From Candidatus Altiarchaeales archaeon (GTDB lineage Archaea > Altiarchaeota > Altiarchaeia > IMC4 > QMZM01), in NCBI GenBank assembly GCA_003663175.1, contig QMZM01000018.1, positions 1 to 15,433 on the forward strand: DNA of 15,433 bases, written 5' to 3'. Positions 1 through 15,360 of this stretch are shown here, piece by piece. The position numbers were made by a program, and so were the translations under genes. How positions within the stretch are numbered: position 1 is the stretch's first letter; each line of letters opens with the position of its first letter. The notes beneath the pieces are model-generated. The model saw nothing but the letters and a program-made list of their open reading frames with translations. It was not told the DNA's origin and did no database searches.

Positions 1-1755
1 AGTGTAGTAGTTTGTGTAGATGTTTGTCCCCAATTGCTTTGTGGTGTTCCAGTTGTTTTGGTAGATGGTTCCAGTAAAATTTATGTTTACAGAGTTGTTT
101 AGCAGGTTGTTGTAGATGTAGTTTGAGCTTGAACTATCGATATAAATTCCATACTTTGAATTTCCTAAGATTGTGGAGTTTGTTATTGTGTTGGAATTTG
201 AACGGATGATATAGATTCCGTAGGTATTATTCTCTGCTCTTAGATTAGTGAAGTTGTTGTTAAGATTATTATAAAAATAAATTCCTTCGCTGTTCTTTAC
301 AGTAATTTTGTCAAATACATTATTGTGACTCGTATAGTCGATATAAATTCCATATGATGTTATATTGGCTATAGTTATATTCTCAAAAGTGTTGGAGCAT
401 GCATATCTTAGAAGTATTCCTACATCACAATCGGTGACTGTAATATTTGCGAATTTGTTATACATTGGGTAATAAACATTATAACCAAGATAAATTCCTC
501 GGTAAAGATTTGCAAATACACTGTTCGTTATGTTTGTATACTTAGTTGCTATTAAAATCAAACCATTATTCTTTTTATCTGTATGGTTCATGGTTAGATT
601 ATCGATTGTTGAGTAATCCGCGCCGCACAGAATAATTTCTGAAACATTGTTATTCCAATTTTGGATATGGACAGAGGAGTTGAAGAAAACTATCGGCTTG
701 TTATCTGTTCCTGTAACATTTATGAACTGAGAGTGGCAATCCATAAAGTTTACTTTTGTGAAATAATAAATATCATAGTTGGTGTTATTAATAACTTTGA
801 CATTCTTTAAAATTGTGTGGTCTGAGTAATAAATATTCACACCGTATTTACTTCCTATTATAGTTATATCTGTTAAGTTGTTGTAATCCGACTCCTCAAG
901 TTTAATTCCGTTCTCACTCATGCTTAGGTTTGATAAGGATATGTTTGATAAGGAATTGTTATCTGAGTGAAGAAGATATATCACTGTAGCAAGATATGAC
1001 TCAGATTCAACCACCAAATTTTCCAGAGTATTTCCGTCAGCATTTCTCAAATAGATGGCTCTACCTCCCCAGCCAGTTACAGTGCAGTTTCTTATCGTGA
1101 TGTTTGTTAGCTCCTCTAAATCCCTGCTAATTACAATTCCACTCATTACAATTCCATAGCTTGTAGTCTCATTTCCATCAATGGTATTTCCTTGGCAATC
1201 CAAAACTACATTGTTCGCTGTTATATTGATGCAGGAAGGTATTGAGGAATTTATTATGCTATCGTTTAAATAATAGGTTCCTGAATCAACTAAGATTGCG
1301 CACCTCGAGAAATTTCCCCCTATACCTATTGTTCTGGTTCCAGATGAGTATGTTCCACTAGCGTCTGTGCAGTTTATATACCATGTGTGGTCTCCGGGAG
1401 CTAAAGTACCGTTTACTGTTAGCGTTGTTTCTGTGTTGTTCTGGACAGAAGAATTCTCGTCATGAAGAGTGCCATCTATATAGAGAGCGCACGAATAGGT
1501 TGAATTTGTAGTGCTGTACGAAATAAAGGTAAAGACGGGTGTCGTATTTAGAGTCTGGGTGAGGTTTGCTGGCGATAAAGAGGTATAGTATATAGTTCCA
1601 TGGGATTGTTGTGAAAAGAGGTCTGCCGTACTATTGCTCGCTCCAGCAATAAGGATGAGTGCGAGCGTAAAACATAAAATGAAACCAAAATCTAGCATCC
1701 TCAACATACCCACAGAATTCGAGGCTTTTACGGCATTAGATTTTATTATCTTCAT
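1..1755 (-). CDS. Secreted or surface right-handed parallel beta-helix (PbH1/NosD-like) repeat protein, N-terminal 585 aa. The C-terminus runs off the window start. It carries a signal peptide and is predicted to be heavily N-glycosylated.
   Basis: I translated the reverse complement by hand from 1755 down to 1. It is one open frame of 585 codons with no stop. The ORF track misses it only because it leaves the window. The N-terminus is MKIIKSNAVKASNSVGMLRMLDFGFILCFTLALILIAGASNS, with a hydrophobic h-region that is signal-peptide-like. Internal Met starts at 1708 and 1698 are alternatives. Repeated ~22-25-aa units such as ...NxxxxNNxI..N...YGIYI..S.NN.I.NN... (SYGIYIDYTSHNNVFDKITV, NTYGIYIIRSNSNTITNSTI, SKYGIYIDSSSSNYIYNNLL) are typical of parallel beta-helix repeats. 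Roughly 35 N-x-S/T sequons occur in 585 aa. Confidence 0.8.
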   Translation of the reverse strand, partial: MKIIKSNAVKASNSVGMLRMLDFGFILCFTLALILIAGASNSTADLFSQQSHGTIYYTSLSPANLTQTLNTTPVFTFISYSTTNSTYSCALYIDGTLHDENSSVQNNTETTLTVNGTLAPGDHTWYINCTDASGTYSSGTRTIGIGGNFSRCAILVDSGTYYLNDSIINSSIPSCINITANNVVLDCQGNTIDGNETTSYGIVMSGIVISRDLEELTNITIRNCTVTGWGGRAIYLRNADGNTLENLVVESESYLATVIYLLHSDNNSLSNISLSNLSMSENGIKLEESDYNNLTDITIIGSKYGVNIYYSDHTILKNVKVINNTNYDIYYFTKVNFMDCHSQFINVTGTDNKPIVFFNSSVHIQNWNNNVSEIILCGADYSTIDNLTMNHTDKKNNGLILIATKYTNITNSVFANLYRGIYLGYNVYYPMYNKFANITVTDCDVGILLRYACSNTFENITIANITSYGIYIDYTSHNNVFDKITVKNSEGIYFYNNLNNNFTNLRAENNTYGIYIIRSNSNTITNSTILGNSKYGIYIDSSSSNYIYNNLLNNSVNINFTGTIYQNNWNTTKQLGTNIYTNYYT

Positions 1756-1775
1756 TACAATCACCAAGATACGGC

Positions 1776-1790
1776 GACTTTTAAGTCCTA
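1776..1790 (-). promoter_or_regulatory. Candidate archaeal TATA box (minus-strand CTTAAAAG) centred about 27 nt upstream of the ATG at 1755. This would imply a leaderless or near-leaderless transcript of the surface-protein gene.
   Basis: The + strand has cttttaag at 1778-1785. The spacing to the ATG (1755-1753) matches the archaeal TATA-to-TSS distance of about -26/-27. There is no obvious SD-like purine tract before the ATG. Confidence 0.35.
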
Positions 1791-2221
1791 TAATCCTATA
1801 ACGATTTTGCCCTCAATCCTAAACATGTAATATTTTTTGATTCTGATATTAAATCTGAGTGTGAATGAATATTTCATGTAGGTGGTGTGCAAAATTCCTA
1901 CACGCTGAGAGTATAAAGGTGAAGTAATCTAAGGGGTTACATGCCATCACCACAATATACATTAATATCGTCATGACGAAACAGTAAAGTTTACGACTTC
2001 ACCGATCAGATTATGAAGTTATAGATAGCTGCGAATGACTCTATCCAAATTAATCCACTTTCCTTTCCAATGGTGGTAAAGTGTGCGGGACAAAGCCTTG
2101 ATTTCGGAACTCTACAGTCTCGGTTCATGAGGGAGTATATATAAACGATAATTTAGAATAAATACTGCCGCAATTGTAATTATTAAATTTCCAATAACTG
2201 ACAATTACATCAAAAAATCGA

Positions 2222-6146: not shown

Positions 6147-7010
6147 TCACCTATATAATAGATCCCAAATTGTTATTTCTTCATCATCCTCGACCCTAAC
6201 AATTTGTGGTTCCCCCTCAATTCCAGCCAATTCTGAAGCAACCTCTATTGCCTTGTCCATTCCACCAATATAATCAATTAACCCCAAATCCTTTGCATCT
6301 TTCCCAAGATATATGCTTCCATCGGAGATATTCCTGACATATTCTGGAGAGAGATTTCTATTCTTTGCAACATCATTTATGAAGTCGTTATAGACATCAT
6401 CAACTATCTCTTGCAATTCCCTTTTTTCTTCTTCCGTCATTTCTCTATATGGACTTCCAATGTCCTTTACATCGCCGGACTTTATAACAGTAACATTTAT
6501 TCCAATCTTTTTATATAATTCATAATAATGTTTAATTGTCATAATAACACCAATACTGCCAGTTATTGAATTCTCATCCGCAACGATCTTATCTGCCCCA
6601 GAAGCGACATAATATGCCCCCGAAGCTCCAACCTCTCCAATCCACGCAACAACGGGCTTTTTACACTCCTTTACAGCCCTCATTAATTCTCTGCTCGCGA
6701 CAACACTTCCACCGCCGGAATTTATATCGAGAATTATTGCCTTTGTAAATGGATCGCCATCCTCTCTCTTAATTATCTCCTTTAATTTTCTTACATTTGC
6801 ACACTGGGGTGTTTCAAGGATAGTTGCCTGACAACCCTCAATTGTTATCTCACCCTTTATTGGAATTACTGCTATCTTGTTTCCAATTCTGGGCACCTCA
6901 CCACTTAAAATTCCCACAATGAAAAATGTCATTCCCATAATCCCCAAAATGAACAGAAAGATTGCCCCAATCGTAATCAAAATCTTCCACTTCCTTTTCA
7001 TCCAACTCAC
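6147..7010 (-). CDS. sppA: Signal peptide peptidase SppA (S49 family, 36K type). It has an N-terminal TM anchor.
   Basis: N-terminal TM helix, then the ClpP/crotonase-fold S49 signature ...AIILDINSGGGSVVASRELMRAVKE...PVVAWIGEVGASGAYYVASGADKIVADENSITGSIGV... Confidence 0.85.
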   Translation of the reverse strand: MSWMKRKWKILITIGAIFLFILGIMGMTFFIVGILSGEVPRIGNKIAVIPIKGEITIEGCQATILETPQCANVRKLKEIIKREDGDPFTKAIILDINSGGGSVVASRELMRAVKECKKPVVAWIGEVGASGAYYVASGADKIVADENSITGSIGVIMTIKHYYELYKKIGINVTVIKSGDVKDIGSPYREMTEEEKRELQEIVDDVYNDFINDVAKNRNLSPEYVRNISDGSIYLGKDAKDLGLIDYIGGMDKAIEVASELAGIEGEPQIVRVEDDEEITIWDLLYR

Positions 7011-7076
7011 CAGGGTATTGATTAAGTTAATAAGACATGACCCTCTCTATTATCTCTTGTTATTTTTGTATTAGAG

Positions 7077-7150
7077 TGCGGTCGCCGGGATTTGAACCCG
7101 GGTCGCGGGCTTGGCAAGCCCGAGTGATAACCAGACTACACTACGACCGC
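7077..7150 (-). tRNA. tRNA-Gly (anticodon GCC), 74 nt, no intron, CCA not encoded
   Basis: The reverse complement GCGGTCGTAGTGTAGTCTGGTTATCACTCGGGCTTGCCAAGCCCGCGACCCGGGTTCAAATCCCGGCGACCGCA folds as a cloverleaf. The 7-bp acceptor stem is GCGGTCG/CGACCGC. The anticodon stem is CGGGC/GCCCG with loop TTGCCAA. The T-arm is CCGGG-TTCAAAT-CCCGG. The discriminator is A. A TATA-like element (taaataaa) lies about 25-32 nt upstream on the - strand. Confidence 0.9.
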
Positions 7151-8263: not shown

Positions 8264-8370
8264 GACTGATGAAAAATTCGGTGAAAAATAGAACTTAACT
8301 TAAGAAAATTTGCACATCTCTCGCATATTTATTTAATTAAAAGTTGTAATAGTAATAAGAACAAATAAAG

Positions 8371-9519
8371 ATGGCTTTAATACCACTTGGAGAAGGTCAA
8401 AAGAGGAGAGGGTTTTCGCTCAGAGGTAAGCAGGAGACCGGATTTAGATGGATGGATGTGATCTATGTTCTAATAATGGCATTTCTTTTTGTTATGCTTA
8501 TATTCCCCCCAACAGATGCGATCGTAATTGGAAATTTTTATATAAATTTTCGCCTCTTTGTTTTACTGTTGATTGCCATCCTATATATCCAAAGGACTAT
8601 TGTTAAATTTGATGAATATGAGAGGGGCGTTGTTTTTAGGCTGGGTAAATTCAAGGAAGTTGCCGGACCTGGTTGGACACTGATTTTCCCGCTTCTTGAG
8701 AAGTATGTTAGGGTAGATTTGAGGTTGCATGTATATACCATAGACCCCCAAGAGGTTGTTACAAGGGATAAGGTTAGATTCTTGGTATCGCCGGAGGTTT
8801 TTATGTATGTATCGGACCCAAAGAGTGCAGTTATAAATGTCAGAGATTATGAGAGTGCAGTCCTAAGCTATGTAAATTCCGCATTAACCCATATATGTGG
8901 AAGTTCCACTTCTGACTATATAGTTTCTCATATGGATGAGATAACTCATAAGATCGAGGCATCCATACATAAAGCCGCAAATCAGCCGGGGAGAGAATGG
9001 GGTGTGGTTGTTCCGAAGATTAAATTAACATTTATAAGATTTCCCGAGAAGGTACAGGATGCCATGCATGAGAAGGTTGCTGCAGAGCAATTGAAGTTGG
9101 CTGCACATGAAAAGGCCGAAGCAATTAAGGTTGAAATCGATGCCATTAGAGAAGCTGGTTCTAAATTGACAGACCCTGCTCTAACATATATGTACTTAGA
9201 GGCATTAGATAAGATCGCGAGAGGAAGGGCAACAAAAATAGTATTGCCGTTGGAGATTTCAAGATTGGCAGAATCGATTACAAAGAGGACTGGTGTTTCT
9301 CCGGAGTCATTAATTACACCAGAGATGGTCAATTATTACAAAGATGTTATGGATAAGTATGAACAGAGGATAAGAAGCATAGAGAAGAAACTAGAGAAGG
9401 ATGAAATCGAACCAAAGAGATTAGAAGAGTACAAGGAGGATATTGAAAAAGAGGAGGAAGAATATAAAAAGAGAATTGAGGAAATAAAGAAGAGATTGGG
9501 TGTGATTAAAAATGAGTGA
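8371..9519 (+). CDS. SPFH/band-7 (stomatin/prohibitin-like) membrane protein with a long KE-rich coiled-coil C-terminus
   Basis: N-terminal TM helix, then the SPFH core FDEYERGVVFRLGKFKEVAGPGWTLIFPLLEKYVRVDLRLHVYTIDPQEVVTRDKVRFLV. The C-terminal third is charged heptad-like (EEYKEDIEKEEEEYKKRIEEIKKRL). Confidence 0.85.
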   Translation: MALIPLGEGQKRRGFSLRGKQETGFRWMDVIYVLIMAFLFVMLIFPPTDAIVIGNFYINFRLFVLLLIAILYIQRTIVKFDEYERGVVFRLGKFKEVAGPGWTLIFPLLEKYVRVDLRLHVYTIDPQEVVTRDKVRFLVSPEVFMYVSDPKSAVINVRDYESAVLSYVNSALTHICGSSTSDYIVSHMDEITHKIEASIHKAANQPGREWGVVVPKIKLTFIRFPEKVQDAMHEKVAAEQLKLAAHEKAEAIKVEIDAIREAGSKLTDPALTYMYLEALDKIARGRATKIVLPLEISRLAESITKRTGVSPESLITPEMVNYYKDVMDKYEQRIRSIEKKLEKDEIEPKRLEEYKEDIEKEEEEYKKRIEEIKKRLGVIKNE

Positions 9520-9787
9520 TGAAGATTTAAACACCAATAACATCACAATCGATGAAAGTGGGAAATCTGTTACCGTGAGAGTAAATCCAAAATTATACAA
9601 GGTTCATGTAATAATGAGGGCCGCCGACGAATTAATTGACGATAATCACATAATAATAAATGGTGACCCAGAAAAAAGCATAATAGTGAAATTTATATCA
9701 AAAAAGGACGAGGTGACGAGGGAGGAATTGTTAAAGACGGCGTACGAATTTAACACATTATTGGTTGCGATAAGTGGCAAGGGTTAA
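9512..9787 (+). CDS. Hypothetical 91-aa soluble protein, translationally coupled between the SPFH gene and the REase-fold/PAP2 fusion gene
   Basis: Its start overlaps the SPFH stop (ATGA at about 9512-9519). Its end overlaps the next ORF by 14 nt. There is no TM segment and no recognisable motif. Confidence 0.6.
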   Translation: MSDEDLNTNNITIDESGKSVTVRVNPKLYKVHVIMRAADELIDDNHIIINGDPEKSIIVKFISKKDEVTREELLKTAYEFNTLLVAISGKG

Positions 9788-11537
9788 TATGGACATCCCC
9801 TTCATATTTGATAAGGGTCCCCCAGAGCCCGAAAGACTAGAATTGGATGAGAACAAACTGAGAAAACTTCTATCTAAATTATTACCCGAATTTAATCTAG
9901 AGATAAAATATATGGAAAGGACCAGGGAGGGAGACATTATTATCGTTTCTCATCATTTTGTCCTAAATAAAGATGTAAGAACCCTTCTCAGGGCCATCTC
10001 ATATCACGGTCCGATAGAAAGAGAAGATATTGAGGACCTTCAAGAAGATATGTTACAAATTGGTGCAATAAATGGCATTCTAATTACATCTTCATATTTT
10101 ACGAAGGATGCGCAGAAATATGCCAAACACTTGCCAATAAGACTTGTTGATGGAGCCGAGCTAATAGAACTCTTAGAGGAACATAGGGTTGTTGAGGCAA
10201 AGGGGGCGTTTCTTCCAAGATTCACCGATGAAGAGGTTATAGATTATTTTGAGAATAGGAAAAGGGAAAGATTATTTGGGCTTTTTCCATCCGATGAGAA
10301 GATCGTCGAGATAGATAGGAGATATATTCCATTGGCACAGTTTAGATTTAGGCAAATTCTTAATGATAAGGAAATTATAAGGAATGTTTATGTTGATCTA
10401 CACAGCGGCGATGTTCTCTACCTGGAGGAGGATAAGATAATGCGAGATGACTTCATAAGGAGGATCATGGATCTGCCTCAAGATGCAAAAAAGGAGTATA
10501 TGGATTTGATAAGATATGGGGAATTAAAACATAAGTATGTCAAGGGAAAAACTCTAAATATATTGGAGAGGAAGGGTCTTGTGATTGTTCAGATGGACGG
10601 TAGGGGCGATAAATTAAATCTAATACTCGATGAAATTTCAGACGCCGTCACTATAACAACAAGTGAGATTTCAACACCAACATCTGAAGCGCCAAAACTA
10701 AAGAAGAGAGAGAAAGAAAAACAAGTTAGGGCAATTATCTATAAACCGGAGATCGATATATCATTTGACCTTGAGCACTTTATGGAATTCAGTAAAGAAA
10801 TAAAAAAGGAATTCGACCCAGATCCAATAAATTACAAATATGATGAGATTTTGGATATATTGCAAAATTTATACAAGAAAGATAAGATTTCATATGATGG
10901 TCTTGTCTATTTGCCATATTATAAGTGTAAGTATGTGACTTCAGATAATGTAGAAAGGTATGATAAATTAATTGCTCCAAAATTCAAACCATTCATGCCA
11001 AAATTTGATAAGTATCTTATCTATAGAATTATCGACAAATTTCCCGCAATTCCATATCTATTTATAGCTATCATGTATTTAATTATAAATTTGAAGGAAA
11101 TCGACAAAGTGATACATATATTTTCATCCGCGTTCATATTTTTATTGATTTGTATTATAGTTGGAATTCTGCTGAAGATTATATTCAAAACGGAGAGAAG
11201 AATTCCGAGGTATACCGGCACAATAGCAAAATATGGATTTCCATCAATTCATAGTATGGCATCCATCGGTGGCATAGCATTTGTGTATTTTGTAAATCCA
11301 TTCTTCGCATTGCTTCTAATCCCCCTGGGTTTGCTCTATGTGCACTCAAGAATTAGCCTCAAGGTCCATTCCGAGATCGATGTCTTGGGAGGGGCGATCA
11401 TTGGAATAATAATTGGAATATTCTGTGGAATCTACATACTTAAAATCCATTTGCCATATGAAATAGAAATTCTATTTAGTATCCTATTCTTTATCGTGCC
11501 ATTGGCCATAACATTTATAGAACTAAGAATGCGATAA
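9774..11537 (+). CDS. Fusion protein: N-terminal Mrr-like restriction-endonuclease-fold domain plus a central region, then a C-terminal PAP2 (type-2 phosphatidic acid / polyprenyl-pyrophosphate phosphatase) multi-TM domain
   Basis: The N-terminal ...GILITSSYFTKDAQKYAKHLPIRLVDGAELIELL... closely matches the C-terminal half of the Mrr_cat restriction-endonuclease domain (gilvTtssFtkeAreyA...ieLidgeeLlell). The canonical D...(E/Q)xK catalytic residues are not obvious. The C-terminal 150 aa are hydrophobic and carry the PAP2 motifs PSIHS (PSGH) and SRISLKVHSEID (SRxxxxxHxxxD). A KTERRIPRY segment approximates motif 1 (Kx6RP). Confidence 0.7.
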   Translation: MARVNMDIPFIFDKGPPEPERLELDENKLRKLLSKLLPEFNLEIKYMERTREGDIIIVSHHFVLNKDVRTLLRAISYHGPIEREDIEDLQEDMLQIGAINGILITSSYFTKDAQKYAKHLPIRLVDGAELIELLEEHRVVEAKGAFLPRFTDEEVIDYFENRKRERLFGLFPSDEKIVEIDRRYIPLAQFRFRQILNDKEIIRNVYVDLHSGDVLYLEEDKIMRDDFIRRIMDLPQDAKKEYMDLIRYGELKHKYVKGKTLNILERKGLVIVQMDGRGDKLNLILDEISDAVTITTSEISTPTSEAPKLKKREKEKQVRAIIYKPEIDISFDLEHFMEFSKEIKKEFDPDPINYKYDEILDILQNLYKKDKISYDGLVYLPYYKCKYVTSDNVERYDKLIAPKFKPFMPKFDKYLIYRIIDKFPAIPYLFIAIMYLIINLKEIDKVIHIFSSAFIFLLICIIVGILLKIIFKTERRIPRYTGTIAKYGFPSIHSMASIGGIAFVYFVNPFFALLLIPLGLLYVHSRISLKVHSEIDVLGGAIIGIIIGIFCGIYILKIHLPYEIEILFSILFFIVPLAITFIELRMR

Positions 11538-11846
11538 TTAGTATCCTGCGGGCCTACTATATAGAAAATTAACCAGGGCCAGTGCAAGGGCAATTATAAA
11601 AAGACCAAGGAGCGTATAAATTAAGCCATTTCTGGCTTCTCTTTTGTCCTCGGTGGTGGAGGCGGTTATAAATTTAAATCCATGAAATATTAATAGGAGA
11701 GTCGCAAATGCTGTGGATATCCCATATATAAGATTCACGAAATCCCAGATCGATGCCTCCCTCAACTCGATGGGTATGATGTGCTGAGAATAAACATTAG
11801 AAATTAATATAAAGACTAAAAAAATTACCAAGATTTTATATTTCAT
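11538..11846 (-). CDS. VirB2/TrbC-like pilin candidate (conjugative or Ced-type pilus subunit), 102 aa
   Basis: Cleavable signal peptide MKYKILVIFLVFILISNVYS|QH. The mature part of about 80 aa has two hydrophobic helices (IWDFVNLIYGISTAFATLLLIFHGF and GLIYTLLGLFIIALALALVNFLY) separated by a short polar loop (TASTTEDKREARN). This is the hallmark size and topology of VirB2/TrbC/TraA/CedA1 pilins. It lies in an operon with a VirB4-like ATPase. Confidence 0.6.
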   Translation of the reverse strand: MKYKILVIFLVFILISNVYSQHIIPIELREASIWDFVNLIYGISTAFATLLLIFHGFKFITASTTEDKREARNGLIYTLLGLFIIALALALVNFLYSRPAGY

Positions 11847-11885
11847 ATTTTCCCTTCACTATTGAATTTAATTTAAATCCTTGGG

Positions 11886-12146
11886 TTATACCATATTTGC
11901 CCTTATTATCTCCTCCAATATTTCAAGAAACTTCTTTTCTTGATCCTCGGTCAATTCAACTAAACCACCTTCTTCGATGCGCAAATCGTTGTTGTCTGCA
12001 ACAACAACCAATGCCCTTGAAACTGGGACACCGAATATCTTTCTCAGATCTTCGTTGGCATTCAGGTCCTTTATTATATTCTCAAGTATGTCCATCCGTA
12101 TTCCAACCCTGTCCGGGTTTACCTTCTCGGTTTCTTCTTCTGGCAT
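11886..12146 (-). CDS. Small acidic soluble protein (86 aa) of unknown function inside the VirB4/pilin cluster
   Basis: Clean ORF 15 nt downstream of the VirB4-like gene and 39 nt upstream of the pilin gene, on the same strand. Glu/Asp-rich with no TM. Confidence 0.55.
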   Translation of the reverse strand: MPEEETEKVNPDRVGIRMDILENIIKDLNANEDLRKIFGVPVSRALVVVADNNDLRIEEGGLVELTEDQEKKFLEILEEIIRANMV

Positions 12147-12161
12147 TTTTCATACCTCCAT

Positions 12162-14468
12162 TTATTTCGTTTCAAATATCTTCCTTATCTTTGCGGGAAC
12201 TTGAGTCCTCAACAGTATTTCACCAAATTCATCATATTTCTTTAATTCTGGATCTGTGACAACATAGAAATAGATGTCATATCTCCTTAACATTTTTAGT
12301 TTATCCCTCATTCTATCTAAGCTTATTTCAACATTTGGTTCTGCAATTATCTCTATCGCCACTATCTCTCCAGTTAATGTCTCAAATGTTATATCTGGCA
12401 GTGTTGTGTGATGAATTAACACCCTATCGGTATATTTCTTTATTTCTTCGTATATGAGATACTGCAAAACGAAATGTTCATCAGTTTCTTTGGTTTCATT
12501 TCTTATAATAAACACCTCATTCATTCCTTCTAAGTTCTCCACCTTAACCTCGTGGAATCCCATATTAAGAAGAGCCTGCATTTCATCATAACTCAACTTA
12601 GCTTCACGATGGATCGGCTTTGTCACATCAAATTCCATCTTGGCTTCATATTCGACCTCTGGACCCTTTTTCTCTTCTCTTACCAATTCTCTCAACTCAT
12701 CTGGCTTTGTTGTTATTATACGATGTTCCTCGGGCGATGCTTGGATATAGATGGGCACCCTTGAATTCCCAGCTATAAGTAATGCATTACCGATACCCGC
12801 TCTCTTCACGAATTCTGCCTCGGCCTCATTTAAATGAAATCTTTCCACAATATCATCTATTACCGTTGTATCTTGCTTTAATAATAATTTTGTTGCCGTG
12901 TTTGCCATTACTGCCCTACCAGCCCTCGATGTCAACACATCCTCAACATCTTGGGTTATCATTATAAGACCGAGATTGAATTTTCTACAGGTCTTTATTA
13001 TTCTGAAGACATACTCCCCCTCTTCACCGGCCGATAGGACAGTCCATGCCTCGTCTATAACAACAATCTTCCTCTTCTTAGATTTCTTCATTTGATTGTA
13101 GATATATTCCAAAAGGAGGAACATAATTGGACCCTTCCCAACATCTGGTATATCCCTTATATCGAATGATATCATTCTATTGTCCAATTCCATCTTTGTG
13201 TGCTGATTTAGAAATCTGAGACCACCAGTGACAAATGGCTTTAATCTCGTCACTATGGCCATTGCAGGTTTATAGATTATATCCTTATCGGACCTTGTTA
13301 ATGGAAGTACATGATTATATAAATCCTCGAGGATTGGTGGTGTTTTGGACCACGTTCTTGGGTCATGGGTAATCCCAGCATCTTCATATGTAGAATCAAT
13401 ACAATCATCTAGGATCGCCCTCATACTCTCGTCCATTCCACCCATCAACACTCTAAAGAATGAAAGCAGAGATAATTTCTTCTCATCATAACTCTGGCCC
13501 AACATATCCATGGGATTTATAATGTTATCCGAATCCGGCGCGATCCTAATTATCTTACCATCAAATGTCTTCACCAAGTCGGTATATTCTGCTTGCGGGT
13601 CAATTATATTTATATCAACACCCTCCATAAATTCCCTCATAATTAATAATTTTATACAATAGCTCTTCCCACCGCCCGATGTACCCAAGACAATTATATT
13701 TGGATTACTCAGCTCAAAGGGATCAATAATTATGGGGATATTATTTATCTGATTAAACCCTATCAAGATTCCCGTTGTGTGATGCTCGAGTGAAGTAGTT
13801 GCGAATGGGAAGCACGCCGCTACCCCAGATGATGTAATGTTTCTTGTTATATGAATCTCATCATTCCCTATTGGCAATACCGACCTTAATGCGGAGTACA
13901 TCTGAAATGATGGAATCTTCGGTGTTATCATTATCGATGTCATGTTCGCCTTTATCTTACTTGTGACCTTATCCAAGGTTTTTTTGTCATGCGCCTTTGC
14001 ATCAATATATAGACTCATATCGAACATCTTCTCAGTCCCAGCCTGTATCTGGCTCAGCAGTGCCATTGTATCTTGATGCTTTTGTATCAATGATTGTGGA
14101 ACGATCTTGCCCTCGGACTCAAGTGCATAGATGTCTGTCTTCTGCTTTTTCAGTTCATTTTCCAACATCGTTATTGTAGATTCAATTGAATACGGTCTTA
14201 TATGAATTGATAAATCAAAATCGAGATTCATCTCAATAAGCCTTGTTAACCATCCCGGCTCAACCACCCTGGGAAAATTTATTGCCGCAATTACCCTGTG
14301 AAATTTGTTATCTATATCGATATAGTCTGGATGCCTCTTAATTGTGGAGGGTGATGTCAAATATGTTAGTAATTTATTCTTGTATTCATCATACAATTTC
14401 TTCTTCCCTTCCTTTTTCTTCTTCATGAATGGCAGTTTTTTTATTGGAAGTTTTATGTTTGGAAACAT
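12162..14468 (-). CDS. VirB4/TrbE/TraC (CedB-like) family conjugation-type ATPase, 768 aa. It appears to lack its usual N-terminal domain, which is encoded by the upstream ORF.
   Basis: The mid-domain FHRVIAAINFPRVVEPGWLTRLIEMNLDFDLSIHIRP matches the conserved VirB4 region (y.r.l.i..yP..v..gwl..L......d.s.hi.p). Walker A is IIVLGTSGGGKSYCIK. The next block is IIDPQAEYTDLV...GKIIRIAPDSDNIINPMD (cf. iDpkGEy..l....gG..i.l.....NPld). Walker B is RKIVVIDEAWTVL. The family-specific ...CRKFNLGLIMITQDVEDV matches (gRKyn..l.laTQ...d). Confidence 0.85.
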   Translation of the reverse strand: MFPNIKLPIKKLPFMKKKKEGKKKLYDEYKNKLLTYLTSPSTIKRHPDYIDIDNKFHRVIAAINFPRVVEPGWLTRLIEMNLDFDLSIHIRPYSIESTITMLENELKKQKTDIYALESEGKIVPQSLIQKHQDTMALLSQIQAGTEKMFDMSLYIDAKAHDKKTLDKVTSKIKANMTSIMITPKIPSFQMYSALRSVLPIGNDEIHITRNITSSGVAACFPFATTSLEHHTTGILIGFNQINNIPIIIDPFELSNPNIIVLGTSGGGKSYCIKLLIMREFMEGVDINIIDPQAEYTDLVKTFDGKIIRIAPDSDNIINPMDMLGQSYDEKKLSLLSFFRVLMGGMDESMRAILDDCIDSTYEDAGITHDPRTWSKTPPILEDLYNHVLPLTRSDKDIIYKPAMAIVTRLKPFVTGGLRFLNQHTKMELDNRMISFDIRDIPDVGKGPIMFLLLEYIYNQMKKSKKRKIVVIDEAWTVLSAGEEGEYVFRIIKTCRKFNLGLIMITQDVEDVLTSRAGRAVMANTATKLLLKQDTTVIDDIVERFHLNEAEAEFVKRAGIGNALLIAGNSRVPIYIQASPEEHRIITTKPDELRELVREEKKGPEVEYEAKMEFDVTKPIHREAKLSYDEMQALLNMGFHEVKVENLEGMNEVFIIRNETKETDEHFVLQYLIYEEIKKYTDRVLIHHTTLPDITFETLTGEIVAIEIIAEPNVEISLDRMRDKLKMLRRYDIYFYVVTDPELKKYDEFGEILLRTQVPAKIRKIFETK

Positions 14469-14469
14469 T

Positions 14470-15360
14470 TTAGGATTCAGATAAAATTTGGGTTGAGGAT
14501 TTGGATATCTTTTCTGGGGTCTTCCACAATCTCTTATACATTGTTACTGGAGATACAAATTCCTCATCGATATAGATCATCTCTGTGAAATACGATGCAT
14601 ATAAATTCAACAATTCCTTGGTATTCAATCTCTTTGAATTTATTCCAGAATATGATAGTGAATCCATAATATTTCTACACCGCACATCAAGACTTCTCAG
14701 GACCTCTCTCTCATCCCAGTGTTTCTTCGCCGGAATTACGATGTAGAATAATCTATCATTTATCTTTATATCCTTTATAAATTCATTCATATATGTTGCA
14801 AAGTGTTCATAATATGCTAAGGAAATCTTATCATCCCTCTCCTCAATTCTCCTCTTTAATGCTGCGAGATAATCACCAATATCCAAATTGACACTCTTCA
14901 TAACAATCTGAATTGGAAAATCAATTGTATTCAAAAATTCTAAAAAACCATATATCACGGAATCTTGGTCATCCTTGCTCAGCATACCAAAATTTATTGG
15001 GGTTACCTGTATAATCCCCAATGCCCTACCATCTTTCATAAACACGGTATCTGCCCTTATGTCCTTCACCTCCATGAGGTTCTGTGCATCTGGAGACAGC
15101 CAAGAAATCCTCTTCTTAGCCCCGGCAAATGTGGCGAGAGTCATGATATAGGCATCTAAGTTCAGTAAAGCAAATGCTAAGCCCCCTCCACCAACGACCA
15201 AAACGATTAATATTTTAAAAAACTCCGGCTTTATATTGGAAAACATCCAAACATATAGGCAAATTGCCCCAGCAACTCCAATATATATGGATTGCTTTAT
15301 TGTAAATGGTCCGATGAATCTCTCCTCATACTTCACATCGGTTGGAATTATTACTGGCAT
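14470..15360 (-). CDS. Membrane protein with a 2-TM, VirB3-like N-terminus plus a VirB4 N-terminal-domain-like soluble region. It is probably the 5' portion of a split or frameshifted VirB3-VirB4 gene.
   Basis: Two TM helices (SIYIGVAGAICLYVWMF and ILIVLVVGGGGLAFALLNL). Then EVKDIRADTVFMKDGRALGIIQVTPINFGMLSKDDQDSVIYGFLEFLNTIDFPIQIVMKS, which matches the N-terminal domain of TraC/VirB4-type ATPases (I.dg.i..kdG.y..il.v.pinf.l.s..e......f...l..l....qi....). Its stop TAA (14470-14472) is followed by one nt and then the ATG of the ATPase ORF. Confidence 0.7.
   Translation of the reverse strand: MPVIIPTDVKYEERFIGPFTIKQSIYIGVAGAICLYVWMFSNIKPEFFKILIVLVVGGGGLAFALLNLDAYIMTLATFAGAKKRISWLSPDAQNLMEVKDIRADTVFMKDGRALGIIQVTPINFGMLSKDDQDSVIYGFLEFLNTIDFPIQIVMKSVNLDIGDYLAALKRRIEERDDKISLAYYEHFATYMNEFIKDIKINDRLFYIVIPAKKHWDEREVLRSLDVRCRNIMDSLSYSGINSKRLNTKELLNLYASYFTEMIYIDEEFVSPVTMYKRLWKTPEKISKSSTQILSES

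What the first reader, a model, noticed from the sequence alone, without database searches (positions are those of the whole stretch)
9774..11537. Unusual fusion of an Mrr-like restriction-endonuclease-fold domain to a PAP2 lipid-phosphatase membrane domain
The N-terminal 140 aa contain a near-textbook match to the C-terminal half of the Mrr catalytic domain (GILITSSYFTKDAQKYAK...IRLVDGAELIELL). The last 150 aa form a multi-TM domain with PAP2 motifs 2 and 3 intact (PSIHS; SRISLKVHSEID). I do not know this domain combination as a described architecture. The REase-fold half lacks an obvious D-(E/Q)xK triad, so it may be a non-catalytic sensor or DNA-binding module. Alternatively it is a divergent nuclease tethered to the membrane. 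The gene is the last cistron of a translationally coupled SPFH, 91-aa, fusion operon. It lies downstream of aglH, so the PAP2 half is a plausible dolichyl/polyprenyl pyrophosphate phosphatase. The eukaryotic Dol-PP phosphatase CWH8/DOLPP1 is a PAP2 member.
Basis: partly seen in the sequence, partly recalled or inferred. Interest (0 to 1): 0.7.

Follow-up and report, generated by a model that had tools for sequence, protein, structure and literature searches.

The report
Dead-nuclease–PAP2 phosphatase fusion in SPFH operon
An uncultivated archaeal group (Altiarchaeota) has a membrane lipid-phosphatase joined to a catalytically dead restriction-nuclease-like domain and an undescribed domain, always encoded next to a stomatin-like scaffold gene; sequence-based topology suggests its active site faces the cell interior, which would be unusual for this enzyme family.

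Summary
ORF 9774/9789..11537 (+) encodes a 582–587-aa protein. Pfam gives a full-length Mrr_cat match (E 4.8e-13) and a PAP2 match (E 7.7e-8). All PAP2 catalytic residues are invariant in 17 homologues. The nuclease (E/Q)xK motif is lost in every member.

It has no Pfam match, and its only PDB fold match is to the winged helix. It also occurs alone, with an Mrr domain, and at the N-terminus of Cdc48-like AAA ATPases.

The fusion is rare: 19 clusters at 90% identity and 9 of 185,579 species genomes; every one that carries a taxon name is Altiarchaeota. No paper describes it. The SPFH / ~95-aa / fusion gene order holds in 26 of the 27 retrieved loci that encode a REase–X–PAP2 fusion. aglH adjacency occurs only in this organism.

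Topology reasoning places the soluble domains and the PAP2 active site together on the cytoplasmic face, so the Dol-PP-recycling idea is not supported. Best reading: an SPFH-associated, regulated lipid-phosphate phosphatase acting on the inner leaflet. The function is inferred, not shown.

The parts
8371..9519 (+). SPFH/Band-7 (stomatin-like) gene, first cistron. The N-terminus is K/R-rich and is followed by two hydrophobic segments split by a PP turn. The C-terminus is an E/K-rich coiled-coil-like tail.
   Evidence: Pfam Band_7 E 6.4e-31. 54-66% identical orthologues lie directly upstream of the small ORF in 16/17 and 11/11 loci.
9512..9787 (+). 91-aa soluble protein, second cistron. It has no known family.
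   Evidence: It overlaps the SPFH stop by 8 nt. It is highly conserved: 28 invariant columns in 8 sequences. No Pfam, NCBIfam, PADLOC or PDB match. A metagenome pattern scan found it only between SPFH and the fusion wherever the contig extends far enough.
9789..11537 (+). Fusion gene, third cistron. The probable start is ATG 9789; the longest ORF starts at GTG 9774. Residue numbers below count from the GTG.
   Evidence: Homologues begin at 'MD', which corresponds to M6-D7.
9828..10175 (+). Residues 19-134: Mrr-type restriction-endonuclease fold that is catalytically degenerate. D54 is D/E/Y across the family. The QxK strand reads LLRAISY.
   Evidence: Pfam Mrr_cat E 4.8e-13; NA-iREase1 scores 25.8 bits against a cut-off of 27. 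Foldseek matches MspJI, AspBHI, AF1548 and Rpb5. Catalytic columns are shown.
10197..10451 (+). Residues 142-226: N-terminal half of the undescribed 'X' module (one helix plus long beta-hairpins; DRRYxP and YVDL motifs).
10452..10595 (+). Residues 227-274: winged helix-turn-helix inserted in the X module.
10596..10715 (+). Residues 275-314: variable, disordered S/T/K-rich linker.
   Evidence: pLDDT below 50. Lowest column identity of any region, 0.46.
10716..10982 (+). Residues 315-403: C-terminal half of the X module (FDPDPxxY, LPYYxCKY and PKFK motifs). It packs against the N-terminal half.
   Evidence: The model of the module alone has pTM 0.78. Invariant residues are P381, Y382, Y383, C385, Y387, R395, P402 and F404.
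10983..11534 (+). Residues 404-587: PAP2 membrane domain. It has an amphipathic helix (411-422) and six transmembrane helices: a 425-438, b 440-471, c 492-505, d 509-529, e 534-555, f 562-586.
   Evidence: Pfam PAP2 E 7.7e-8. The profile matches AaLpxE 6ebu (E 4.8e-9) and BsPgpB 5jki (E 2.2e-7). Foldseek gives TM-scores of 0.60 and 0.53 normalised to those targets.
11175..11207 (+). PAP2 motif C1 variant, K468-x6-R475-x2-P478.
   Evidence: K468, R475 and P478 are invariant in 17 sequences. Standalone relatives have the canonical KxxxxxxRP.
11241..11252 (+). PAP2 motif C2, P490-S-I-H493.
   Evidence: Invariant.
11346..11381 (+). PAP2 motif C3, S525-R526-x5-H532-x3-D536.
   Evidence: Invariant.

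Best explanation
The gene encodes an integral-membrane PAP2 phosphatase that looks catalytically competent. In this Altiarchaeota lineage its cytoplasmic N-terminus carries two regulatory or adaptor modules. The first is an Mrr-type restriction-endonuclease fold that has lost its (E/Q)xK catalytic motif. The second is an undescribed ~260-aa module (called X here), made of a beta-rich core with an inserted winged helix. The gene is co-transcribed with a stomatin-like SPFH scaffold and a ~95-aa soluble protein.

Proposed mechanism (inferred, not shown): the SPFH protein assembles on the cytoplasmic face of the membrane. Through the small protein and/or the dead-nuclease/X region, it binds and confines or gates the PAP2 enzyme. 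The PAP2 active site is predicted to sit on the same cytoplasmic face, directly beneath the X module. There it would remove phosphate from an inner-leaflet isoprenoid lipid phosphate or pyrophosphate, such as newly made polyprenyl-PP, archaetidic acid or a phospholipid-phosphate intermediate. This would tune lipid composition in an SPFH-delimited membrane patch.

What the computations establish: the domain composition, the catalytic-residue pattern, the operon conservation and the lineage restriction. What is inferred: the topology, the partner interactions and the substrate.
For: Architecture and residues:
- Pfam Mrr_cat and PAP2 both score above their cut-offs.
- K468, R475, P478, PSIH490-493, S525, R526, H532 and D536 are invariant in 17 homologues that are 39-53% identical overall. 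The PAP2 core is the most conserved region.
- The QxK strand reads LLRAISY, LVRARAY or IVVWTKY, against IIQCKRY in canonical Mrr relatives.
- The fold model (pLDDT 78.7) matches MspJI/AspBHI for the N-terminal domain and LpxE/PgpB for the membrane domain.

Coupling to SPFH:
- The SPFH / small ORF / fusion order holds in 16/17 loci, and in 11/11 loci found through the small protein wherever the contig extends far enough.
- A divergent Altiarchaeota fusion (P0027) is still directly preceded by an SPFH gene.
- A relative whose PAP2 domain is replaced by an ArsP_1-like permease domain (P0032) still follows SPFH and the small ORF.
- Flanking genes are housekeeping genes and differ between loci, so the triad is the conserved unit.

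Topology:
- The protein has no signal peptide. The X module also occurs in soluble proteins and at the N-terminus of AAA+ ATPases, so it is cytoplasmic.
- In the AaLpxE crystal structure, the N-terminal amphipathic helix lies on the active-site side of the membrane (PMC6581854).
- K+R counts are 15.7 for the N-flank, the two active-site loops and the C-tail combined, against 1.4 for the three opposite loops. Standalone relatives give 13.5 against 1.5.
- E. coli PgpB and YbjG, whose active sites are known to face the periplasm (PMC4641660), instead carry K/R clusters (RFRIK and PRRR in PgpB; the C-tail in YbjG) opposite the active site.
- This subfamily has one extra C-terminal transmembrane helix before its K/R-rich tail.

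Analogy and weak context:
- In B. subtilis, YisP is a farnesyl-PP phosphatase whose product stabilises flotillin (SPFH) microdomains (PMC8144471).
- The closest standalone PAP2 (P0044) sits beside a UbiA prenyltransferase.
Against: - There are no experimental data, and no physical interaction between any of the three proteins has been shown.
- The topology comes from sequence rules and homology only. I could not read coordinates from the AF2 model. A review states that the PAP2/LPT catalytic centre is 'always' lumenal or external (PMC5798408), so the prior runs against an inward-facing site.
- One lineage (L015) has the fusion without an adjacent SPFH gene. A more divergent X+PAP2 protein (P0028) also lacks SPFH.
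- The P0032 case, with a swapped membrane domain, could mean the membrane part is only an anchor.
- The substrate is unknown.
- A dead nuclease plus a winged helix is not an obvious regulator of a lipid enzyme.
- Recurrent adjacency to a VirB4/pilin cluster hints at a different, DNA-related role.
Confidence: 0.45

Rival explanations
1. The PAP2 half is an outward-facing dolichyl- or polyprenyl-pyrophosphate phosphatase. It recycles the lipid carrier released by N-glycosylation and is functionally linked to the upstream AglH-like GT4 gene.
For: A GT4 (AglH/MraY-like) gene lies immediately upstream in the window. The best NCBIfam matches, though weak, are undecaprenyl-PP phosphatases and LpxE. 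Structural relatives LpxE and PgpB do dephosphorylate C55-PP (PMC6581854). In L003-L005, PMT and GT2 genes lie a few kb upstream.
Against: GT4 is adjacent only in this organism (the window and L027, the same organism). No GT4 hit was found in any locus from another organism. An outward-facing site would require exporting a ~400-aa N-terminal region that lacks a signal peptide and whose X module is otherwise cytoplasmic. The charge distribution argues for an inward-facing site. The NCBIfam scores are 19-22 bits against cut-offs of 177-250.
Confidence: 0.1
2. This is a conflict or defence module. The dead Mrr-like domain plus the winged helix senses foreign or modified DNA at the membrane. It then switches on the PAP2 domain as a toxic effector that depletes lipid carriers or phospholipid precursors, giving an abortive-infection-like outcome. 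SPFH keeps the effector in check.
For: The N-terminal domain matches PADLOC models mREase_IV and PDC-S02 (E down to 1.6e-7). It also scores close to the cut-off of the NACHT-associated inactive REase family. Some soluble relatives keep an intact D...ExK motif (P0048). The membrane domain can be swapped like an effector module (P0032). The X module is also fused to AAA+ ATPases.
Against: The PADLOC hits cover only the generic Mrr fold. The operon is a stable chromosomal locus between housekeeping genes (chorismate synthase, fumarase, RNase HII) with conserved synteny across species, not a variable defence island. No viral structural relatives of the X module were found. SPFH is more conserved (54-66% identity) than is typical for fast-evolving defence genes.
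Confidence: 0.12
3. The protein works with the neighbouring type-IV-secretion-like apparatus (VirB2-like pilin, VirB4-like ATPase, PrgI/TraC-like protein). In this reading it is a membrane-tethered DNA-binding factor, a dead nuclease plus winged helix. The PAP2 domain acts as an anchor, or it remodels the lipids that co-assemble with the pilin.
For: The pilin gene abuts the fusion stop codon with zero intergenic bases. The VirB4 cluster lies directly upstream of SPFH on the same strand in about 7 distinct other loci (L003-5/L013, L014, L016, L017/L037, L028, L029, L030). In the window it is convergent downstream. Adjacency therefore recurs in two different arrangements. Archaeal VirB2-like pili are stoichiometric pilin-lipid complexes (PMC9905601).
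Against: About half of the loci, including the 1.56-Mb contig, have the triad without any T4SS-like genes nearby. The invariant PAP2 catalytic residues argue against a pure anchor role. The cited paper reports no phosphatase requirement.
Confidence: 0.1

Closest known systems
Small bacterial membrane PAP2 phosphatases: Aquifex LpxE (6EBU), B. subtilis PgpB/YodM (5JKI), E. coli PgpB and YbjG
   Same: Same fold and the same catalytic motifs (C1 K...R, C2 PSxH, C3 SRx5Hx3D). An amphipathic helix precedes the core. These are the best sequence-profile and structural matches.
   Different: There is one extra C-terminal transmembrane helix. C1 has a 2-residue insertion before the proline. A ~400-aa cytoplasmic N-terminal extension is present. 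The charge distribution predicts the opposite membrane orientation. The substrate is unknown.
Mrr / MspJI-type (type IV) restriction endonuclease catalytic domain, Pfam Mrr_cat; and inactive derivatives such as NA-iREase1
   Same: The profile matches over its full length and the predicted fold is the same. As in NA-iREase1, the catalytic residues are lost.
   Different: The (E/Q)xK motif is absent and the Asp is not conserved. There is no NACHT/STAND partner. The domain is N-terminal to a winged helix rather than C-terminal as in Mrr. It is tethered to a membrane enzyme.
SPFH-partner operons (stomatin-NfeD/STOPP, HflK/C-FtsH)
   Same: An SPFH scaffold gene is translationally coupled to genes for a membrane protein that is the likely client.
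   Different: The partners are not NfeD or a protease. Neither the 91-aa protein nor the fusion matches any NfeD model. The client is a phosphatase.
B. subtilis flotillin microdomains and YisP (farnesyl-PP phosphatase)
   Same: An SPFH scaffold is functionally linked to an isoprenoid-(pyro)phosphate phosphatase whose product shapes the microdomain (PMC8144471). This is the closest functional analogy to the proposed mechanism.
   Different: YisP is a soluble enzyme with a terpene-synthase fold, not a PAP2. It is not in an operon with the flotillins. The analogy is functional only and is untested here.

Membership tests
PAP2 superfamily (PF01569), membrane lipid phosphatase branch | Profile match above the curated threshold | tested here: met
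   32.6 bits against a cut-off of 27.2, E 7.7e-8. The family profile hits LpxE at 4.8e-9 and PgpB/YodM at 2.2e-7.
PAP2 superfamily (PF01569), membrane lipid phosphatase branch | Catalytic motifs C1 KX6RP, C2 PSGH and C3 SRX5HX3D | tested here: met
   C2 (PSIH) and C3 (SRISLKVHSEID) are exact and invariant. C1 keeps K468 and R475 at the canonical spacing, with the proline displaced by 2 residues. All are invariant in 17 sequences.
PAP2 superfamily (PF01569), membrane lipid phosphatase branch | Fold: helical bundle superimposable on PgpB/LpxE | tested here: met
   Foldseek against 5jki gives TM-score 0.53 and against 6ebu 0.60, normalised to the target, both with probability 1.00.
PAP2 superfamily (PF01569), membrane lipid phosphatase branch | Active site on the external or lumenal face (stated as universal in PMC5798408) | tested here: not met
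   This is a sequence-based prediction only. The cytoplasmic N-terminal domains are attached on the active-site side. K+R is 15.7 on that side against 1.4 on the opposite side. It needs experimental confirmation.
PAP2 superfamily (PF01569), membrane lipid phosphatase branch | Phosphatase activity on lipid phosphates | not testable with these tools
   Requires an enzyme assay.
Mrr_cat / PD-(D/E)xK nucleases (PF04471) | Profile and fold match | tested here: met
   49.7 bits against a cut-off of 21, covering profile positions 4-115 of 115. Foldseek hits MspJI, AspBHI and AF1548.
Mrr_cat / PD-(D/E)xK nucleases (PF04471) | Catalytic D ... (E/Q)xK residues | tested here: not met
   The QxK strand is LLRAISY here and differs between clades. 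The Asp column is D/E/Y.
NACHT-associated inactive REase 1 (PF22722) | Profile match above threshold and association with a NACHT/STAND NTPase | tested here: not met
   25.8 bits against a cut-off of 27. No NTPase is present in the protein or the operon.
Undecaprenyl-/dolichyl-PP phosphatases (YbjG, SepP, LpxE equivalogs; DOLPP1/CWH8) | Equivalog-level sequence match | tested here: not met
   NCBIfam scores are 19-22 bits against cut-offs of 177-250. DOLPP1/CWH8 itself was not compared.
Undecaprenyl-/dolichyl-PP phosphatases (YbjG, SepP, LpxE equivalogs; DOLPP1/CWH8) | Conserved genomic linkage with glycosylation genes | tested here: not met
   The GT4 gene is adjacent only in this organism.
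SPFH-NfeD operon | SPFH gene followed by an NfeD-family partner | tested here: not met
   SPFH is present (Band_7 E 6.4e-31). Neither downstream protein matches an NfeD model. The only NfeD1b_N-like hit is a peptidase S49 on the other strand, 1.3 kb away, and it is not conserved.

The most novel reading that the evidence does not exclude
This subfamily would be the first PAP2 phosphatases whose catalytic centre faces the cytoplasm. In Altiarchaeota the enzyme is capped by a nuclease-dead Mrr/winged-helix module and held in a stomatin-like SPFH assembly. Such an enzyme would be a candidate for the cytoplasmic-face polyprenyl-PP or lipid-phosphate phosphatase. Such an enzyme has been postulated but never identified for bacterial C55-PP (PMC4641660); to my knowledge none is assigned in archaea. 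The middle 'X' module, shared with Cdc48-like AAA ATPases, would be a new adaptor domain.
Probability: 0.25. Interest if true: 0.8.

Novelty: new variant of a known kind. Interest (0 to 1): 0.6.

Why it matters
Three things would follow if the reading holds.

- It would break the rule that PAP2 active sites always face outward. It would also give a concrete candidate for lipid-(pyro)phosphate dephosphorylation on the cytoplasmic leaflet. Who performs that step is still an open question for bacterial carrier lipids; for archaeal dolichol and phospholipid synthesis, I say so from general knowledge only.
- It would add a non-protease client to the SPFH scaffold family. The operon is compact enough to be reconstituted.
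- It defines a previously undescribed ~260-aa domain that links dead nucleases, membrane enzymes and AAA+ ATPases in a poorly known archaeal phylum.

The limits are that the system is confined to uncultivated Altiarchaeota and that every functional statement is inferred.

Tried and rejected
- A phmmer search of the whole protein against PDB sequences found nothing at E ≤ 1.
- The word-index homologue search with the X-module alignment A2 returned only 2 proteins. It did not even return the window's own protein, so it was uninformative.
- The afdb50 fold library was unavailable, so UniProt-level distribution of the X module could not be checked.
- The BFVD viral structure library gave no match at E ≤ 0.001.
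- The 91-aa protein gave only noise against Pfam, NCBIfam, PADLOC and PDB. The best hit was HxsD at E 0.023, 15 bits against a cut-off of 50.
- Literature searches for Altiarchaeota + SPFH and for PAP2 + restriction endonuclease + SPFH found nothing relevant.
- I considered that archaeal conjugation-type pili might use headgroup-free lipids made by a phosphatase. The cited paper instead describes lipids with phosphate head groups.
- I considered peptidase S49 (6147-7010) as an NfeD-like partner and rejected it. It is on the opposite strand and is not conserved in other loci.
- An assembly or frameshift artefact is rejected because the full-length architecture recurs in independent assemblies.
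Full report
**What is there**

The window is a 15.4-kb contig of a Candidatus Altiarchaeales MAG. The protein is deposited at NCBI as hypothetical protein DRO94_02155. The window is 37% G+C.

ORF 9774..11537 (+) gives 587 aa from a GTG. Homologues and the deposited annotation begin at the ATG at 9789 (582 aa), one base after the stop of the preceding 91-aa ORF.

Pfam gives two matches above their curated cut-offs:
- Mrr_cat: 49.7 bits, E 4.8e-13, residues 24-134, covering essentially the whole profile (positions 4-115 of 115).
- PAP2: 32.6 bits, E 7.7e-8, residues 482-551.

The NACHT-associated inactive REase model scores just below its threshold (25.8 bits against 27).
- The nuclease-fold match is full length, not half.
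- PAP2 motif 1 is also present.
- About 260 residues between the two domains form a third conserved module.

**Catalytic residues**

I aligned 17 full-length homologues that are 39-53% identical to the window protein. The PAP2 residues K468, R475, P478, P490-S-I-H493, S525, R526, H532 and D536 are invariant. The PAP2 core is the best conserved part of the protein. This argues for an active phosphatase and against a mere membrane anchor.

The nuclease signature, by contrast, is gone. Canonical Mrr relatives read GG(V/I)D...(I/V)(I/V)QCKRY. The fusion proteins read D/E/Y at the Asp column. At the QxK strand they read LLRAISY, LVRARAY or IVVWTKY. The replacements differ between clades, so there is no hidden alternative triad. 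A soluble relative (P0048) still has D...EVK, which points to secondary loss.

**Structure**

An AlphaFold2 model of the whole protein (pLDDT 78.7) has five parts:
- a REase fold at residues 19-134;
- a beta-rich module at 142-403, interrupted by a winged helix (227-274);
- a disordered linker (275-314) within that module;
- an amphipathic helix (411-422);
- six transmembrane helices.

Foldseek against the PDB matches MspJI, AspBHI, AF1548 and Rpb5 for the first domain. It matches B. subtilis PgpB/YodM (5JKI) and Aquifex LpxE (6EBU) for the last. Sequence profiles agree: LpxE E 4.8e-9 and YodM E 2.2e-7.

**Distribution**

The full architecture is rare, and every example that carries a taxon name is Altiarchaeota:
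- 19 clusters at 90% identity among 5.8 billion;
- about a dozen representatives at 50% identity among 1.8 billion;
- 9 of 185,579 GTDB species genomes. Seven are titled Altiarchaeota or Altiarchaeales; the other two are unclassified archaeal MAGs.

Database names are 'hypothetical protein', 'restriction endonuclease' or 'PAP2 family phosphatase'. No paper in the library describes it.

The exhaustive profile search also showed that the parts occur separately:
- X alone (~260 aa);
- REase+X soluble proteins (370-490 aa);
- X at the N-terminus of Cdc48/Vps4-like AAA ATPases, some with DUF835;
- X+PAP2 without the REase domain;
- REase+X fused to an ArsP_1-like permease domain instead of PAP2;
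- standalone ~180-aa PAP2 proteins 28-46% identical to the fusion's membrane domain.

Several of these are also Altiarchaeota. In one MAG an X-only gene overlaps the start of an X-AAA-AAA gene.

**Gene context**

The SPFH / ~95-aa / fusion order is conserved in 16 of 17 loci retrieved through the fusion. The exception is L015, where archaeal pilin-like genes precede the fusion. The order also holds in all 11 metagenome loci retrieved through the small protein, wherever the contig extends far enough.

The coupling persists in more distant relatives:
- A divergent Altiarchaeota fusion (P0027) is directly preceded by an SPFH gene with no small ORF between them.
- The relative with the permease-like membrane domain (P0032) also follows SPFH and the small ORF.

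Genes on either side are housekeeping genes and vary between loci: chorismate synthase, fumarase, RNase HII, RFC-like. The triad is therefore the conserved unit, and REase+X is the constant partner of SPFH.

SPFH and the small ORF overlap by 8 nt. The small ORF and the fusion are 1 nt apart. The AglH-like GT4 gene upstream of SPFH in the window is not found near the triad in any other organism.

A VirB2-like pilin / VirB4-like ATPase / PrgI-TraC-like cluster abuts the fusion's stop codon in the window, in convergent orientation. In about seven other distinct loci it lies directly upstream of SPFH on the same strand. About half of the loci lack it.

**Topology argument**

This is inference. It has four steps.

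1. The N-terminal ~400 residues have no signal peptide. The X module is fused elsewhere to ATP-dependent AAA+ enzymes and occurs in soluble proteins. It is therefore cytoplasmic.
2. Only one amphipathic helix and two hydrophobic helices separate X from motif C1. In the AaLpxE crystal structure, the equivalent N-terminal amphipathic helix lies on the membrane surface on the active-site side (PMC6581854). X and the active site should therefore share a side.
3. Charge bias agrees. K+R sums to 15.7 for the N-flank, the two active-site loops and the C-tail. It sums to 1.4 for the three opposite loops. In standalone relatives the figures are 13.5 and 1.5.
4. As a control, E. coli PgpB and YbjG have periplasm-facing active sites established by experiment (PMC4641660). 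They carry their K/R clusters (RFRIK, PRRR, and the YbjG C-tail) opposite the active site. The present subfamily has one extra C-terminal transmembrane helix before its K/R-rich tail. That is what an inverted enzyme with a cytoplasmic C-terminus would need.

The SPFH protein has a K/R-rich N-terminus followed by two hydrophobic segments separated by a PP turn. This looks like a stomatin-type hairpin and would put its SPFH domain in the cytoplasm too.

I could not read model coordinates, so the geometry was not checked directly. A review states that PAP2/LPT catalytic centres are always external or lumenal (PMC5798408). The prediction therefore runs against a strong prior and needs an experiment.

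**Interpretation**

The best-supported reading is an SPFH-associated PAP2 lipid-phosphate phosphatase with regulatory domains acting at the cytoplasmic leaflet. The dead nuclease fold and X would serve as the interface to SPFH and the small protein, or as a gate over the active site.

The nearest functional precedent is B. subtilis YisP, a farnesyl-PP phosphatase whose product stabilises flotillin microdomains (PMC8144471). Two weak context clues point to isoprenoid lipids:
- A standalone relative sits beside a UbiA prenyltransferase.
- Another lies 4 kb from a polyprenyl synthase.

A defence-system reading rests only on generic Mrr-fold hits and fits poorly with the stable housekeeping context. 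A role with the T4SS-like cluster remains possible for part of the lineage; archaeal VirB2-type pili are pilin-lipid complexes (PMC9905601).

**Verdict**

This is a real, conserved, lineage-specific and undescribed architecture built from known folds plus one new module. I rate it a new variant of a known kind, of moderate to high interest. The interest comes mainly from the predicted inverted PAP2 topology and the non-canonical SPFH partnership. Both can be tested directly.

Noticed in passing
window 11538-15360 (- strand); also L003-L005, L013, L014, L016, L017, L028-L030, L037: There is a type-IV-secretion-like cluster: T4SS_pilin/TrbC (102 aa), an 86-aa ORF, a VirB4/TraG-P-loop ATPase (768 aa) and a PrgI/TraC-like protein (296 aa). 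It abuts the fusion's stop codon with zero intergenic bases. In about 7 other distinct Altiarchaeota loci it lies directly upstream of SPFH on the same strand, with a different gene order. This may be a chromosomal Ced/Ted-like DNA-transfer system linked to the triad.
   Followed up: partly
window 10197-10982 (residues 142-403); P0096, P0110, P0119, L019 6001-9629: The ~260-aa 'X' module (a beta core with an inserted winged helix) has no Pfam model, and its only PDB fold match is to the winged helix. It also forms the N-terminal domain of Cdc48/Vps4-like single and double AAA ATPases, some ending in DUF835. In one MAG an X-only gene overlaps an X-AAA-AAA gene.
   Followed up: partly
L023 1124-2767 (P0032): This relative is SPFH / small ORF / REase+X fused to an ArsP_1-like permease domain instead of PAP2. 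The membrane domain of the system is therefore exchangeable.
   Followed up: partly
L021 5001-6538; L024 7001-12252: The closest standalone PAP2 (P0044) is followed by a 279-aa UbiA-family prenyltransferase. The Altiarchaeales IMC4 standalone PAP2 (P0047) is followed by AMMECR1, with a polyprenyl synthase 4 kb away.
   Followed up: no
window 6147-7010 (-): A peptidase S49 (SppA-like) with a weak NfeD1b_N match lies 1.3 kb upstream of the SPFH gene on the opposite strand. It recalls stomatin-NfeD protease pairs but is not conserved next to the triad in other loci.
   Followed up: partly
window 7076-7150 (-): tRNA-Gly (GCC) lies between the S49 peptidase and the GT4 gene.
   Followed up: no
window 1-1812 (-): A partial ORF of more than 604 aa has NosD/right-handed beta-helix repeats and an Ig-like domain, and runs off the 5' end of the window. 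It is probably a surface protein.
   Followed up: no
L001 1-3012 (JGI Ga0315273_10000001, 1.56 Mb contig): A called gene of 26,652 residues ends about 3.5 kb upstream of the triad in a near-complete Altiarchaeota genome. It is a giant protein with no Pfam hit on record.
   Followed up: no
L007 3582-4646 (-): A second, different PAP2-type gene (PAP2_3, 354 aa) lies 2 kb upstream of the triad in one lineage.
   Followed up: no
L020 6001-8655; L026 7001-9442: Soluble REase+X paralogues occur as a tandem pair of 398 and 484 aa. The first keeps D...EVK. They are followed by a convergent UPF0020/N6_N4 methyltransferase and gatB, and this synteny is conserved in two MAGs.
   Followed up: no
window 8325-8342: An A/T-rich TATA-like stretch (atatttatttaattaaaa) lies ~30-45 nt upstream of the SPFH start codon. 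It is a possible archaeal promoter for the three-gene operon and was not tested.
   Followed up: no
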